From contig CAZCLJ010000002.1 of NCBI GenBank assembly GCA_964499465.1, positions 1 through 51,075 on the forward strand: 51,075 nucleotides of DNA, given 5' to 3'. The notes under the pieces were generated by a model, which was not told the DNA's origin, searched no databases, and was given only the letters and a program-made list of their open reading frames with translations. Source of the DNA: an uncultured Hyphomicrobiales bacterium (GTDB lineage Bacteria > Bacteroidota > Ignavibacteria > Kapaibacteriales > UBA2268). Both the position numbers and the translations under genes were made by a program. This document shows positions 24,537 through 28,987 of the stretch, in pieces. Position 1 is the stretch's first letter; every line of letters begins with the position of its first letter.

Positions 24537-24710
24537 GGGGAATGGGATTCGAACTAAAACAATCCCCTGTTTTAAGCGCTTTTGACTTAAACAAAAAATC
24601 CTGGCCTAAACCAGGTTTTCTTGTTTTCCGCGAACATTCCCAAGGAGCTCGGGTCTGCACGATACTAAATTGTCTCTGCGGGGTGTAAGCGATTCGAACT
24701 GTGTGGGTTG
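24537..24710. repeat. Intergenic module A, paralogous to module B
   Basis: It shares four things with 28821-28987: a GGGATTCGAAC block, a bidirectional terminator hairpin (CCTGG..CCAGG), an exactly identical 34-mer (24648-24681), and a tRNA 3'-end-like block. Confidence 0.6.
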
Positions 24711-24787
24711 GTGCGATAAAAAATTGTCACTCCTGCCCTAATTTTACTTAAATATTATATTTATTTACAAAATTAAGGACTTTAAAC

Positions 24788-25393
24788 TTATTTTTTTGAT
24801 ATTAATAATTTTCTCATCCTGTCATTATCAAACGCAATATCACCAACCTCATTTTCAATTTCATCAAGAGATATGTTGTATTTATTTTTATACAAACTGC
24901 CAACTGAACCAAAAACCGCCTCCTGAAAATTCAGTCCTAATTTATTTGCCACTTTTTCAACGGCTTTTTCAGACAATCCTTCTATCTCAATAAAAGGCTC
25001 AAAAAACGGCCAGGTATCAATAGTAATTTCTGTATCCAGTAATTTCCACAATTCGCGCTTAGTAAACGTAACGGCCTTTTTCAAACACCCAATAGACTCT
25101 AACAGCTTAACTCCACTGTCAAAATTATCAATTTTAAGAGAAATTTCTTTTTGGTCAGAAATTCCTTCACCTAAAATAGCTTTTAATGATAGGGTAATTT
25201 TATCCCCCTCGTCACGTACCCTAAGCCATTTATGATCAGATCTCTTTTCTTGCGGCAATTGAAAATTAATTCGTTTTTGATCAAATTCAGGGCGCACAAG
25301 AGTGGCACCAATTTCAACAAGTTTATCTCTTATACAATCCTTATTTATATTTAAAAACTTTGCCTCTATTTCCGCAAAATTATCATTACTCAT
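24788..25393 (-). CDS. CYTH-domain protein (CyaB/thiamine-triphosphatase superfamily)
   Basis: Signature N-terminal EIEAKF (ExExK). 201 aa. ATGA overlap with the upstream carbamoyltransferase. Confidence 0.75.
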   Translation of the reverse strand: MSNDNFAEIEAKFLNINKDCIRDKLVEIGATLVRPEFDQKRINFQLPQEKRSDHKWLRVRDEGDKITLSLKAILGEGISDQKEISLKIDNFDSGVKLLESIGCLKKAVTFTKRELWKLLDTEITIDTWPFFEPFIEIEGLSEKAVEKVANKLGLNFQEAVFGSVGSLYKNKYNISLDEIENEVGDIAFDNDRMRKLLISKK

Positions 25394-27087
25394 ATTTTTT
25401 CTACTACATAATTACCGATAATTAAAATATCTATTTTTGCTCTTAAAAACATCTTTATCGCATCCTCTGGCGAACACACTATTGGCTCTCCCGGCCCATT
25501 GAACGACGTATTCAAAACCAACGGGATGCCAGTAATTTTTCTAAATTCGTTCAACAACCTCCAAAATAAGCCATTCGAATCCGACGTAACTGTCTGCGGT
25601 CTTGAGCTTCCATCAATATGACATACAGCGGGGATAATTTTTTTATATTTATCTTTTATTTTAAAGGTATATAGCATGTACGGTGATTTTAGTTTTTCTT
25701 CAAAAAATTCTTCACTATATTCCGCCATAACGCTAGGCGCAAAAGGACGCCAAAGTTCTCTATTTTTAATATTATTAACTCTGTCGCTAATTTCTTTTTG
25801 TCTTGGATCGGCTAAAATACTACGGTTCCCCAGGGCGCGTGGGCCAATTTCCAATCTTCCCTGAAACCATGCAATTATCTTACCATTTGCTATAAAATTT
25901 GCCCCGACTTTAGCGATGTTGGTTACTTTTTTAAAAGATAGTTTATATTTAATCAATGCTCTTTCAATATCCATATCACTAAACTCTGGCCCCAGAAAAG
26001 GATTCAGCTTTGCGCCCTTAATACCCGTCCTGTTGAATTGTGTTTCCAAGGCGGCACCCAAACTAACGCCGGAATCATTAGTTGTTGGCACAATATGAAT
26101 ATGCTTGTATATTTTTGACTTAGCGATTGCCGTGTTTGCGTTACAATTTAACGCAACCCCTCCGACGATGCATAAATGATCACCCCCCACGATATCGTGC
26201 GCAATTTTTACAAGATGCAACATCACCTTCTCAAGAGTTTTTTGCGCAGAAAGCGCAATCATTTTTTCTTTACTTGAAAAAATTTTTCTCAACGAAGAAT
26301 CAACAAAAAAATCTTTTTCGTTAAATTTAAATTTTTTAATTATTTTATCTCTCCATAAACCAATCAACTGTTCCTGCTCATCTAGACAACTTTTTTTCAT
26401 CCTAACCTTTCCCAATAAATTTACCTGGATATCATTTTTATTTAGTTGGAATTCATGAAAAATTTTGGGATTTTTACCATACCCAGACAATCCCATAGTT
26501 TTTCCACTGTCAAAGTACGAAAAGCCCAGGGCTTTATTTATGGCTTCAAAAAAATAACCCAAAGATACATCTATTGGTAAAGTTAATTTTTTTTCTAAAC
26601 TATAATTTCTGCCTTCCCAAATAGATATAGCACAATATTCCCCTTGCCCATCAACAACAAGAATGGCTGAATTTTTATATCCGCTTGTGCGATAAACACT
26701 GCTTGCATGCGCCAAATGATGATCAACTACTTCTAGCTCTGGATCTCTTTTCCTGTTAAAGAGTTTTCTGGGAAAATATAAATTTAGAAGATCTTTAGAA
26801 TAGGATGGCAATTCTATATTGCGCATCTTGTATTTCAAATGATAATCCCACCCAATTGAAATTATATCAACATCATCAGGAGACAATTTTGCTTTATTTA
26901 AACAATATTCAATGGCCCTGTAAGGCAATTGTTCAAAAGCATGCCTGTATCTCGTCAATCTCTCTTCTTCGATAAAGGCAATAATCTCACCATCGCTAAC
27001 CAAACAGGCCGAAGCATCATGACTTCTTGTAAACCACCCATTTATACCAATAATATTCATATGGCTAAACATATTAATATCTATCAT
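25390..27087 (-). CDS. Carbamoyltransferase, NodU/CmcH/TobZ family
   Basis: NIIGINGWFTRSHDASACLVSDGEIIAFIEEERLTR, a Kae1-like N-terminal half, and a C-terminal YrdC-like half (RPFAPSV..., HIDGSSRPQTV, LNTSFN). The likely true start is MNIIGING at about 27060. Confidence 0.85.
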   Translation of the reverse strand: MIDINMFSHMNIIGINGWFTRSHDASACLVSDGEIIAFIEEERLTRYRHAFEQLPYRAIEYCLNKAKLSPDDVDIISIGWDYHLKYKMRNIELPSYSKDLLNLYFPRKLFNRKRDPELEVVDHHLAHASSVYRTSGYKNSAILVVDGQGEYCAISIWEGRNYSLEKKLTLPIDVSLGYFFEAINKALGFSYFDSGKTMGLSGYGKNPKIFHEFQLNKNDIQVNLLGKVRMKKSCLDEQEQLIGLWRDKIIKKFKFNEKDFFVDSSLRKIFSSKEKMIALSAQKTLEKVMLHLVKIAHDIVGGDHLCIVGGVALNCNANTAIAKSKIYKHIHIVPTTNDSGVSLGAALETQFNRTGIKGAKLNPFLGPEFSDMDIERALIKYKLSFKKVTNIAKVGANFIANGKIIAWFQGRLEIGPRALGNRSILADPRQKEISDRVNNIKNRELWRPFAPSVMAEYSEEFFEEKLKSPYMLYTFKIKDKYKKIIPAVCHIDGSSRPQTVTSDSNGLFWRLLNEFRKITGIPLVLNTSFNGPGEPIVCSPEDAIKMFLRAKIDILIIGNYVVEKI

Positions 27088-27981: not shown

Positions 27982-28658
27982 GGATACTTCTCCCAAACCT
28001 TAGGGGCAATATTTTTTATAATTGACTTGGCTGCGTTAAAATTGGGCTGATAATGCAAGTTGCCCACAAACACAACGTGAAAACTGCCACATTTTCTTTT
28101 TTTATATTCTTGTGCGTCAACCCCATTTGGAATATAGCGGAGTTTTTTTGAAGAAATGCCAAGCTCAAGTAGCTGTTGATAATCCAACGATGACATGCAA
28201 ATTACTTGATTTGAACAAGCCGCCACGACACGCTGCGTCTCGCGAGATAATTCAATTTCTGATTCAGACATTTTAAGACTTTTAAAAAGAACATGGTCAA
28301 CATCATGCATGTCGCAAATAAGCGGAACCTTTAACATGCCAGCGAGCCTTCTCCCGTAATTAAGTATAACTGGATGTGAATTACAAATATGAAGAACGTC
28401 TATATTGTCTTTTTTTATAAGGGCGGCGACTTTAATAATATTTTCATCATAAAGCCAATTTGCTGGAAATAGTATTGAAGAAAAAGGTTCTTTTTTTAAA
28501 TCACTATCTTTTATCCAGCCTCTATCTCCCAAATATACTAATAAATCTGCATTTTGTTTTGCCAAATATCTAGCAACATTATAAAAACGATAAGTAACAC
28601 CATCCTTTGGCGGTATAGTCAAGCAATCAAAAAGTAATCCAATTTTCATACATTTCAT
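27915..28658 (-). CDS. GT4-like glycosyltransferase, N-terminal part only (probably 3'-truncated)
   Basis: 247 aa. It ends shortly after VVFVGNLHYQPN...RFTIIGR, where GT4 enzymes normally continue for about 120 aa. It overlaps the convergent epimerase ORF by 67 nt. Confidence 0.65.
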   Translation of the reverse strand: MKCMKIGLLFDCLTIPPKDGVTYRFYNVARYLAKQNADLLVYLGDRGWIKDSDLKKEPFSSILFPANWLYDENIIKVAALIKKDNIDVLHICNSHPVILNYGRRLAGMLKVPLICDMHDVDHVLFKSLKMSESEIELSRETQRVVAACSNQVICMSSLDYQQLLELGISSKKLRYIPNGVDAQEYKKRKCGSFHVVFVGNLHYQPNFNAAKSIIKNIAPKVWEKYPQARFTIIGRKKNGFDEVSEAE

Positions 28659-28820
28659 TAAGTCTTAAAAATGAATACTATCTGCGCCACACACGCAACA
28701 AGAAGGCAACGTTAACCATATTAAGCAATAAATACAATCAAAATCTTAAATGTTAAATTATCAATAATTGATAATTTTGTCAATTTAATTAAACAGAAAT
28801 TGATTAAACTATAAATTTTT

Positions 28821-28987
28821 CACGTTTGGGATTCGAACCAAAATTATCCATATTTTCCAGCCTCTTTGACGAAAACGAAAAAAACCTGACGTAATCAGGT
28901 TTTTTCGTTTTTTTGCTAACAATCGCCAGCCACTCGGGTCTGCACGATACTAAATTGTCTCTGCGGAGAGTGAGGGATTTGAACCCT
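28821..28987. repeat. Intergenic module B, paralogous to module A
   Basis: Same architecture as module A. The identical 34-mer is at 28933-28966. The terminator hairpin is CCTGA..TCAGG flanked by A/T runs. Its right end is the tRNA-Ser 3' copy. Confidence 0.65.
28962..28987 (-). repeat. Direct repeat: exact 26-nt copy of the tRNA-Ser 3' end (attR-like)
   Basis: TGCGGAGAGTGAGGGATTTGAACCCT is identical to 31382-31407. On the minus strand that is part of the T stem, the T loop, the acceptor 3' strand and 3 further nt. Confidence 0.85.

What the first reader, a model, noticed from the sequence alone, without database searches (positions are those of the whole stretch)
24537..28987. Two paralogous ~170-nt intergenic modules with an exactly conserved 34-mer, each bracketed by tRNA 3'-end-like fragments
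Module A (24537-24710) and module B (28821-28987) have the same architecture, read here on the plus strand. First comes a (T)GGGATTCGAAC block, the reverse complement of a T-loop GTTCGAATCCC. A bidirectional terminator hairpin follows. Then comes the identical 34-mer CTCGGGTCTGCACGATACTAAATTGTCTCTGCGG (24648-24681 and 28933-28966). Last is a tRNA 3'-end block. In B this last block is the exact tRNA-Ser copy; in A it is a 19/26 related sequence (GGGGTGTAAGCGATTCGAAC). Everything around the 34-mer has diverged, so its perfect identity suggests selection or recent conversion. Candidates are a recombinase or transposase binding site, an element end, or part of a small RNA. The modules sit at the borders of separate gene blocks (rSAM pseudogene | CYTH-carbamoyltransferase block | RiPP cassette), consistent with serial integration next to tRNA-Ser.
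Basis: seen in the sequence. Interest (0 to 1): 0.62.

Follow-up and report, generated by a model that had tools for sequence, protein, structure and literature searches.

The report
Recombination-site scars beside a tRNA-Ser gene
The two repeated modules are the junction pieces left where mobile gene blocks were inserted one after another behind a serine tRNA gene of a tiny-genome (Patescibacteria) bacterium. The exactly conserved 34-mer is the element-side half of the attachment site, shared by a whole family of such islands that travels with a large serine recombinase.

Summary
In detail: the 34-mer is exact at 24648-24681 and 28933-28966, the modules are about 70% identical elsewhere (P about 1e-4 for such a run), and 28962-28987 copies the tRNA-Ser(GGA) 3' end exactly.

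Read on the minus strand, each module runs: tRNA-Ser 3' end (or a conserved pseudo-3'-end), the 34-mer ("S"), a small hairpin, a two-way terminator, then a second T-loop motif.

The contig is Patescibacterial. S is absent from the rest of the bin and from its relatives. It recurs in 18 of 121 Patescibacteria genomes and 9 metagenome contigs, always abutting a tRNA-Ser 3' end, often at the borders of gene blocks that lack an integrase.

It co-occurs with one clade of SprA-like large serine recombinases (10/18 genomes with S against 0/20 without). Empty-versus-occupied comparisons place the exchange point at the tRNA end or the first bases of S.

The 2.4-kb peptide-modification (RiPP) islet next to the tRNA belongs to a second layer, whose tyrosine integrase is found in relatives.

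Verdict: these are att-junction scars of serial integration, with no recombinase left in the window. They resemble SCC composite islands and tycheposon arrays. The kind is known; this variant is not described in the searched literature, though earlier notes of this scan report it repeatedly. The enzyme assignment is inferred.

The parts
31383..31470 (-). Intact tRNA-Ser(GGA), the anchor of the whole array. Its last 25 nt plus 1 (31382-31407) form the proximal direct repeat.
   Evidence: ARAGORN; Rfam tRNA 54 bits; 100% identical tRNA in Patescibacteria G062:C3, with syntenic gatA-HAD.
28988..31381 (-). Layer 1: a 2.4-kb integrase-less islet (short peptide, rSAM/SPASM enzyme, TehB-like methyltransferase). 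It is of the tyrosine-integrase tRNA-Ser(GGA) element type. The P' arm is about 31254-31381 and the P arm about 28988-29160.
   Evidence: Exact 26-nt direct repeats; Pfam. The P arm is homologous to the attR arms of integrase-bearing elements in G061:C4 and G062:C3. Those carry tyrosine integrases next to the same tRNA.
28962..28987 (-). Displaced tRNA-Ser(GGA) 3' fragment (attR core of the islet). It is also the tRNA side of the older tRNA|S junction of module B.
   Evidence: Exact copy of 31382-31407.
28933..28966 (-). 34-mer S, copy B. On the minus strand it reads CCG-CAGAGACAATTTAGTATCGTGCAGACCCGAG. It is the element-side half of the att junction.
   Evidence: It is the most conserved block across 10 modules from 6 sources, with column identity 0.89-0.94.
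28827..28932 (-). Rest of module B: hairpin hp1 (28908-28931), two-way terminator (28878-28906), conserved GTCAAAGAGGCTGGAAAAT arm (28852-28870) and second T-loop motif GGTTCGAATCC (28829-28839).
   Evidence: The second T-loop has column identity 0.94, and similarity collapses just beyond it.
24753..28826 (-). Cargo block between the modules: truncated GT4, truncated epimerase (on +), carbamoyltransferase and a CYTH protein. No recombinase.
   Evidence: Pfam. Recombinase-free cargo blocks are bounded the same way in G069:C8, G061:C6 and G061:C7.
24679..24752 (-). Distal (P-side) end-piece of that block: leader TTTAAGTAAAATTAGGGC (24735-24752), rep1 (24700-24734, a paralogue of S) and pseudo-tRNA 3' end 'core prime' (24679-24699).
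   Evidence: The same leader-rep1-core' unit precedes S in G061:C6, G061:C7 (twice), G067:C2, G063:C8, L025 and L030.
24648..24681 (-). 34-mer S, copy A.
24537..24647 (-). Rest of module A: hairpin, two-way terminator (stem 24600-24615), conserved arm and second T-loop motif AGTTCGAATCC (24545-24555). Its outer edge abuts the truncated rSAM gene.
21316..24536 (-). Oldest layer: an rSAM/SPASM pseudogene split by an IS3-family element, plus a transglutaminase-like gene. It ends in a second copy of the tyrosine-integrase P arm (21316-21465).
   Evidence: Pfam rve, SPASM and Radical_SAM; inverted repeats 22906-22942 and 24066-24102. Positions 21316-21465 are 87% identical to the attR arm of G061:C4.

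Best explanation
The modules are att-junction pieces of mobile gene blocks inserted one after another at the 3' end of tRNA-Ser(GGA) in a Patescibacteria chromosome. The newest block lies nearest the tRNA.

The 34-mer (S) is the element-side (P') half of the attachment site of a family of islands that target the very end of tRNA-Ser genes. The exchange point lies at ...CTCTC-CG-CAGAG..., which is the last bases of the tRNA and the first bases of S. Every integration therefore creates a tRNA|S junction that can be targeted again. It pushes the previous junction inwards as [leader-rep1-pseudo-tRNA end | S]. Module B is the former tRNA|S junction. It was displaced when a tyrosine-integrase-type 2.4-kb islet later entered the same tRNA. 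Module A is the internal junction behind the sugar-gene block. The terminator in each module ends the tRNA transcript and insulates the cargo.

The enzyme most likely responsible in the family is an SprA-like large serine recombinase acting in cis or in trans. None is left on this contig, so the two modules here are probably inactive scars.

Shown: the repeats, their family-wide conservation, the junction anatomy, an empty-versus-occupied site, and the co-occurrence with the recombinase. Inferred: which enzyme acts, that S is its half-site, and the order of events.
For: 1. S always abuts a tRNA-Ser 3' end. It follows full tRNA-Ser(GCU/CGA) genes in L026, L033, G061:C6, G062:C4, G069:C8, G135, G170 and others. 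Elsewhere it follows tRNA-Ser-like 3' fragments.
2. Empty versus occupied: G062:C4 has tRNA-Ser|S'-terminator. G061:C6 has the same tRNA and the same S'-terminator, separated by 2.5 kb (S-module, GNAT and ASCH genes, rep1-core'). The sequences switch parent between CCG and ...GTGCA of S.
3. L026 and L030 share S-module plus cargo but have different upstream parts.
4. G135 has a clean 17.4-kb island with exact 22-nt repeats GTTCGAATCCCTCTCTCTCCGC ending at CCGC. S follows only the tRNA-proximal copy. A large serine recombinase is inside and no PF00589 hit lies in the island.
5. Close orthologues of that recombinase (at least 69% identity) occur in 10/18 genomes with S and 0/20 without. Eight lie on the same contig, always convergent with the tRNA, 0.1-9.3 kb from S.
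6. S and the second T-loop are the two most conserved blocks.
7. For the tyrosine-integrase layer, the P and P' arms are homologous to integrase-bearing elements at the identical tRNA in G061 and G062.
8. Decay increases with distance from the tRNA: an intact islet, then truncated GT4 and epimerase genes, then an IS-split pseudogene.
Against: No recombinase of either type lies in the 51-kb window, and the rest of this organism's genome is not identifiable in the bin.

Large serine recombinases normally need only a 2-bp shared core and dyad-symmetric half-sites. Here the repeats are 22-56 nt long, and S shows symmetry with the tRNA side only over its first 5 nt.

Targeting of a tRNA|S junction whose right half is already element-type is not canonical for serine integrases. 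It is assumed by analogy with SCC.

S-like remnants also occur in a native-looking trailer (G135 attR flank) and in a site with no cargo (L033). Part of S may therefore be host-borne.

The first loci were found with an exact 24-27-mer, which inflates the apparent conservation. The later BLAST survey is less biased but still seeded on S.
Confidence: 0.7

Rival explanations
1. The junction anatomy is the same, but the enzyme is a tyrosine integrase acting in trans. Candidates are the tRNA-Ser(GGA) integrase family seen in relatives, or Xer-like enzymes. S would then be an arm or extended-core sequence of a tyrosine-type att site, and the serine recombinase would be only a passenger of some islands.
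For: Long identical repeats (22-56 nt) and a directly repeated S/rep1 motif flanking the core are typical of tyrosine-integrase att sites with arm-type sites. A tyrosine integrase does sit next to tRNA-Ser(GGA) in G061:C4, G062:C3, G064 and G070. Layer 1 in the window is clearly of that type.
Against: Those integrase elements have different arms (GGGCAC/TGGTAAA motifs) and lack S. The native trailer in G062:C3 also has no S. No PF00589 hit lies on any S-bearing contig examined: window, G061:C6/C7/C8, G135 island, G170:C2, G179:C1, G071:C24 and G097:C29. S co-occurs with the serine recombinase clade instead.
Confidence: 0.12
2. S is a functional part of the tRNA-Ser transcript: a 3' trailer with a processing signal, or a small RNA ending at the module's terminator. 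The repeated modules would arise by duplication and RecA-type homologous recombination between conserved trailers, not by site-specific recombination.
For: S starts exactly at the tRNA 3' end and is followed by a terminator. In single-copy trailers of other genomes the 5' part of S can pair with a downstream CUAAAUUG/GRGUCU segment, with one compensatory change and G-U pairs (read by eye). The minus-strand folds have z about -2.7.
Against: No Rfam family matches. The pairing partner is absent from the window-type modules. RNAalifold finds covariation only in the terminator and little in hp1. S is equally conserved behind non-functional pseudo-tRNA ends. S is present in only about 15% of related genomes and tracks a recombinase clade, which a housekeeping trailer would not.
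Confidence: 0.1
3. Each module (S to second T-loop, about 150 nt) is itself a miniature non-autonomous element. It would be an emptied island keeping only its two ends and a terminator, comparable to a CIME or a MITE. It would be mobilised in trans and spread on its own, with the flanking gene blocks as bystanders.
For: Both ends of the module (S and the second T-loop) are the conservation maxima, with sharp outer boundaries. The sequence after the second T-loop looks like a decaying tRNA-Ser acceptor end in several copies: L029, G061:C6 and module A. The same module occurs with many different right flanks.
Against: There are only two copies in this assembly and 3-5 in the richest genomes. Copies are always next to tRNA-Ser or rep1-core', never dispersed. 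A 150-bp circle is an unlikely recombination substrate. Cargo blocks end in their own conserved end-piece (rep1-core'), which fits blocks that move with the modules. This reading is partly compatible with the best explanation.
Confidence: 0.08

Closest known systems
SCC / SCCmec composite islands of staphylococci (CcrAB/CcrC large serine recombinases at the 3' end of rlmH). Compared from my own knowledge; not fetched here.
   Same: Insertion at the 3' end of a conserved gene. The target is regenerated at the proximal junction, so elements stack in tandem. A short repeated site marks every border. Many units lack their own recombinase. The cargo is accessory or defence genes.
   Different: The target is a tRNA-Ser gene, whose 3' end the element must restore. 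The repeats are longer (22-56 nt) and include a 34-nt invariant block plus a pseudo-tRNA end. The recombinase is SprA/YokA-like. The host is Patescibacteria. No activity has been shown.
Tycheposons and tRNA-flanked island arrays of Prochlorococcus (bioRxiv 10.1101/2020.12.28.424599).
   Same: Tandem elements and degraded remnants separated by partial tRNA copies, with new arrivals pushing older ones into the island. A minority of these elements use large serine recombinases.
   Different: Tycheposons mostly use tyrosine recombinases and often carry replication genes. No counterpart of the conserved 34-nt trailer, terminator and T-loop module is described in the passages read.
Classical tRNA-targeted genomic islands with tyrosine integrases (Islander-type; PMC4383910).
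   Same: An intact tRNA plus a displaced 3' fragment as direct repeats. The 2.4-kb islet at 28988-31381 fits exactly, and relatives carry the integrase next to the same tRNA.
   Different: The islet has lost its integrase. The S modules do not share the arms of that system.
CIME-ICE accretion in Streptococcus thermophilus (from my own knowledge).
   Same: Integrase-less units are bounded by att sites, and further elements integrate into them.
   Different: Those use tyrosine integrases and a protein-gene 3' end. No conjugation genes are present here.
Integron cassette arrays.
   Same: Unidirectional gene blocks without a recombinase, separated by a recurring site, with a recombinase at one end of some arrays.
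   Different: There is no IntI, no attC-type folded site, the blocks carry several genes, and the anchor is a tRNA gene.

Membership tests
tRNA-targeted island with tyrosine integrase (for 28988-31381) | Intact tRNA plus a displaced identical 3' fragment as direct repeats | tested here: met
   26-nt exact repeat at 31382-31407 and 28962-28987.
tRNA-targeted island with tyrosine integrase (for 28988-31381) | Integrase gene inside the island next to the tRNA | tested here: not met
   No PF00589 hit on the contig. It is present in the homologous elements of G061:C4, G062:C3, G064 and G070, so this copy is an integrase-less derivative.
tRNA-targeted island with tyrosine integrase (for 28988-31381) | att arms homologous to those of integrase-bearing members | tested here: met
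   The P arm 28988-29160 and the P' arm 31254-31381 align with the G061:C4 and G062:C3 elements.
Large-serine-recombinase composite islands (SCC-like) at tRNA-Ser | Large serine recombinase (Resolvase + Recombinase + Zn-ribbon domains) in or beside the array | tested here: not met
   Absent from the window and from the whole bin. Present beside S in L026, G061:C6, G061:C8, G062:C4, G071, G097, G135, G170 and G179. The window therefore holds orphan sites of the family.
Large-serine-recombinase composite islands (SCC-like) at tRNA-Ser | The same site repeated in direct orientation at every unit border, anchored at the 3' end of a conserved gene | tested here: met
   Seen in the window, G061:C6, G061:C7, G067:C2 and G069:C8.
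Large-serine-recombinase composite islands (SCC-like) at tRNA-Ser | Insertion polymorphism with the exchange point inside the site | tested here: met
   G062:C4 against G061:C6; G135 22-nt repeats.
Large-serine-recombinase composite islands (SCC-like) at tRNA-Ser | The recombinase actually recombines these sites | not testable with these tools
   This needs an assay or read-level evidence.
Integron | IntI-type tyrosine recombinase with attI, and cassettes ending in folded attC sites | tested here: not met
   No tyrosine recombinase on the contig. S has no attC-like imperfect palindrome.
IS / MITE end | Terminal inverted repeats, target-site duplication and dispersed copies | tested here: not met
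   Only two co-oriented copies in the assembly, no inverted partner and no dispersed copies.
Known non-coding RNA family (Rfam 15) | Match at or near the gathering score | tested here: not met
   Only the tRNAs pass. Nothing is above noise in 24400-29200 or in 13 related loci.

The most novel reading that the evidence does not exclude
The S-bounded, recombinase-less gene blocks are true cassettes of an integron-like capture platform. A chromosomal SprA-like large serine recombinase, sitting at the far end of the array, would excise and insert circles of S plus cargo at the regenerating tRNA-Ser|S junction. This would give streamlined Patescibacteria a dedicated way to shuffle sugar-modification, peptide-modification and defence genes. 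The reading is not excluded: the distance from tRNA to recombinase varies from 0.1 to 9.3 kb with different cargo in between.
Probability: 0.25. Interest if true: 0.7.

Novelty: new variant of a known kind. Interest (0 to 1): 0.45.

Why it matters
Patescibacteria have tiny genomes and almost no described mobile-element biology. A conserved attachment module at tRNA-Ser that collects recombinase-less blocks of surface-sugar, peptide-modification and defence genes would explain how their accessory genome turns over. It would also give a sequence tag (S plus the tRNA-Ser end) for finding such islands in metagenomes. A serine integrase with a long, well-defined natural site is also of practical interest. 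For this particular window the value is smaller, because it holds decayed, enzyme-less copies.

Tried and rejected
1. Known RNA family: Rfam at gathering and permissive thresholds gave nothing, on the window and on 13 related loci.
2. Structured RNA: single-sequence folds and RNAalifold support only the terminator.
3. Dispersed repeat or MITE: no further copies in the 4.9-Mb bin, allowing up to 3 mismatches and by short BLAST.
4. Conservation in the bin's own relatives: none in 60 genomes. This, together with synteny to Patescibacteria, showed the contig is foreign to the bin.
5. The two RiPP-like cassettes as recent paralogues: rejected, with only 24% identity in the SPASM part.
6. The pseudo-tRNA ends as 3' ends of another tRNA of this assembly: no tRNA matches.
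7. S on viral contigs: none.
8. Tyrosine integrase near any S array: none.
10. A fuzzy-regex scan timed out and was replaced by BLAST.
11. I did not build a covariance model, because BLAST already recovered diverged copies.
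Full report
**Observation.** The 34-mer is exact at 24648-24681 and 28933-28966. The two modules are homologous over about 160 nt. 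Identity outside the run is 69%, and a run of at least 34 matches then has P about 1.2e-4. The 26 nt at 28962-28987 copy exactly the 3' end of tRNA-Ser(GGA), which ARAGORN and Rfam place at 31383-31470 on the minus strand. Both modules contain a hairpin that scores as a terminator on both strands and keeps its pairing through compensatory changes.

All features are co-oriented with the tRNA, so I read them on the minus strand. Each module then runs: tRNA-Ser 3' end (module B) or a pseudo-3'-end (module A), then S, then a small hairpin, then the terminator, then a conserved arm, then a second T-loop motif GGTTCGAATCC. Module A also includes, upstream, a 35-nt paralogue of S ('rep1', 24700-24734, 25/35 identical to S in its consensus form) and an 18-nt leader. 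It therefore ends near 24752 rather than 24710.

**Where the contig comes from.** The window is a whole contig of a 4.9-Mb, 531-contig bin. Its GC is 36.6%, against 32% for the bin. The bin holds second copies of tRNA-Ser(GGA) and tRNA-Trp on other contigs. The modules, and even this tRNA, are missing from 60 relatives of the bin. By contrast, the tRNA-Ser(GGA)-gatA-HAD segment is syntenic, at 70-74% nucleotide identity, with Patescibacteria genomes G061, G062 and G064. G062 has a 100% identical tRNA. The only genome-collection hit to S is titled as a Patescibacteria MAG. The contig is therefore best treated as Patescibacterial and mis-binned.

**The 34-mer elsewhere.**
- Exact-word scans found S in that MAG and in nine metagenome contigs.
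- A BLAST survey with a whole module found it in 18 of 121 relatives of the MAG.
- In every case S abuts a tRNA-Ser 3' end. It follows full tRNA-Ser(GCU) or (CGA) genes in L026, L033, G061:C6, G062:C4, G069:C8, G135, G170 and others. Otherwise it follows the conserved pseudo-end GTTCRAATCGCTTACTCYCCG preceded by rep1.
- Across ten modules from six sources, S (column identity 0.89-0.94) and the second T-loop (0.94) are the conservation maxima. The rest is 0.59-0.82, and similarity collapses beyond the second T-loop.
- The first loci were found by an exact word, so their conservation is partly by construction. The BLAST-found copies (G063, G067 and the single-copy trailers) are less biased and still keep most of S.

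**Arrays and insertion polymorphism.** Several genomes show the window's pattern: gene blocks without a recombinase, bounded proximally by [tRNA or pseudo-end | S-module] and distally by [leader-rep1-pseudo-end].
- G061:C7 has two modules 6 kb apart around IMPase, SAM synthetase, peptidase and rSAM genes.
- G061:C6 has a GNAT/ASCH block.
- G069:C8 has an 8-kb sugar-nucleotide block.
- G067:C2 and G063:C8 show the same arrangement.

G062:C4 is an empty counterpart of G061:C6. Both have the same tRNA-Arg/tRNA-Arg/tRNA-Ser(GCU) neighbourhood and the same S'-terminator. In G061 these are separated by 2.5 kb. The left junction is tRNA-type through the acceptor, and the right junction is pseudo-end-type. 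The two switch parent between CCG and ...GTGCA of S. L026 and L030 share module plus LCAT cargo but differ upstream, with a full tRNA in one and AlaRS'-rep1-pseudo-end in the other.

In G135 a 17.4-kb island is bounded by exact 22-nt repeats GTTCGAATCCCTCTCTCTCCGC that end at CCGC. S follows only the tRNA-proximal copy. Intersecting the two intervals puts the exchange at the CCGC at the tRNA terminus. Read directly from the sequence...CTCTC-CG-CAGAG... is a near palindrome centred there.

**Which enzyme.**
- No recombinase lies in the window.
- A roughly 447-aa large serine recombinase has Resolvase, Recombinase and Zn-ribbon domains. Its closest solved relative is SPbeta SprA/YokA. It lies convergent with the tRNA, 0.1-9.3 kb from S, in L026, G061:C6, G061:C8, G062:C4, G071, G097, G135, G170 and G179.
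- Close orthologues (at least 69% identity) occur in 10 of 18 genomes with S and in 0 of 20 without. My own hypergeometric calculation on the counts gives about 1e-4.
- No PF00589 hit lies on those contigs or in the G135 island.
- S variants track the recombinase clades. The CAGAG type goes with the clade at least 94% identical, and the CCAAG/CCAAT type with the 75-84% clade.

This is association, not proof. Long repeats and re-use of a junction whose right half is already element-type are not canonical for serine integrases. I assume them by analogy with SCC.

**A second system.** The 2.4-kb islet at 28988-31381 belongs to another layer. About 190 nt at its distal end and about 130 nt at its proximal end are homologous to the att arms of 9-12-kb elements at the same tRNA in G062:C3 and G061:C4. 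Those elements carry a tyrosine integrase next to the tRNA and the same 26-nt repeat. A second copy of that distal arm lies at 21316-21465, at the end of the IS3-split rSAM pseudogene block.

The native tRNA-Ser(GGA) trailer in G062 lacks S. S must therefore have arrived at this tRNA with an S-type element. G067:C2 shows rep1 + GGA-type end + S.

**History proposed (inferred).** The order of arrival was, first, the tyrosine-type block (now 21316-24536, the oldest and decayed). Next came the S-type element whose end is module A. Then came the S-type element carrying the sugar block, from module B to rep1-pseudo-end. Last came the tyrosine-type islet, which displaced the tRNA end now at 28962-28987. 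Gene decay increases with distance from the tRNA, which fits this order.

**Rivals.**
- A tyrosine integrase acting on S is not supported by co-occurrence.
- A trailer RNA is weakly suggested by pairing of S with a downstream segment in some single-copy trailers. That partner is absent here, there is no Rfam match, and S is conserved behind pseudo-tRNA ends. Transcript data were unavailable.
- A module-only miniature element cannot be excluded and overlaps with the main reading.

**Comparison and novelty.** The published analogues are SCC composite islands (from my own knowledge), tycheposon arrays and classical tRNA islands (listing). I found no paper on serine-recombinase islands at tRNA-Ser in Patescibacteria. 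Earlier notes of this scan describe what looks like the same family in other genomes, including an RACCCGAGTR motif and a GCGG core. I reached the reading before seeing them, and they are not independent evidence. This window adds an enzyme-less, two-layer example and the exact S block.

Noticed in passing
window 1-51075 (whole contig C2): The contig looks Patescibacterial but sits in a 4.9-Mb, 32% GC bin. Its GC is 36.6%, tRNA-Ser(GGA) and tRNA-Trp are duplicated elsewhere in the bin, and it is syntenic with 1.1-1.5-Mb CPR genomes. It is probably a mis-binned contig.
   Followed up: partly
window 21388-21424, 29083-29120, 31255-31290: GGGCAC(A) motif pairs lie in the P and P' arms of the tyrosine-integrase att sites. 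These arms also carry TGGTAAA-like repeats. They are probably integrase arm-type binding sites and are conserved in G061:C4 and G062:C3.
   Followed up: partly
L050 1693-1809 (G159:C5): A LOOT RNA (RF03000) match just above its gathering score (47.3 against 46.4 bits) lies about 170 nt downstream of a tRNA-Ser with an S-type trailer.
   Followed up: no
L063 (G067:C2, about 99.8 kb): One module carries five tandem copies of GTCAAAGATTTA, which expands the conserved GTCAAAGAGG arm.
   Followed up: no
L041 12962-15241; L102 5881-15930; L101 3931-13909: The large serine recombinase is divergently adjacent to a type I restriction-modification operon (MerR-HsdM and others) in G061:C6, G062:C4 and G170:C2. 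An AAA_21 + HNH pair lies between S and the recombinase in G061:C6. These look like defence cargo.
   Followed up: partly
L084 (G069:C9), L097 (G090:C4), L088 (G097:C1): A more distant large-serine-recombinase clade (about 37% identity) lies next to tRNA-Ser(GGA) genes in other Patescibacteria.
   Followed up: no
L030 5001-6323; L029 2976-3656; L040 11075-12208; L033 3875-5797: Alanyl-tRNA-synthetase-like genes or fragments recur right beside S modules. L033 has a full alaS directly after tRNA-Ser-S-rep1, and there are truncated copies elsewhere.
   Followed up: no
window 18014-18024 (minus strand): A lone T-arm-like GGTTCGGATCC lies in the spacer after the 524-aa membrane protein gene. There is no S nearby, and it may be chance.
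   Followed up: no
window 27178-28658: Convergent epimerase and GT4 genes overlap, and both look C-terminally truncated. This is consistent with decay of the older cargo block.
   Followed up: no
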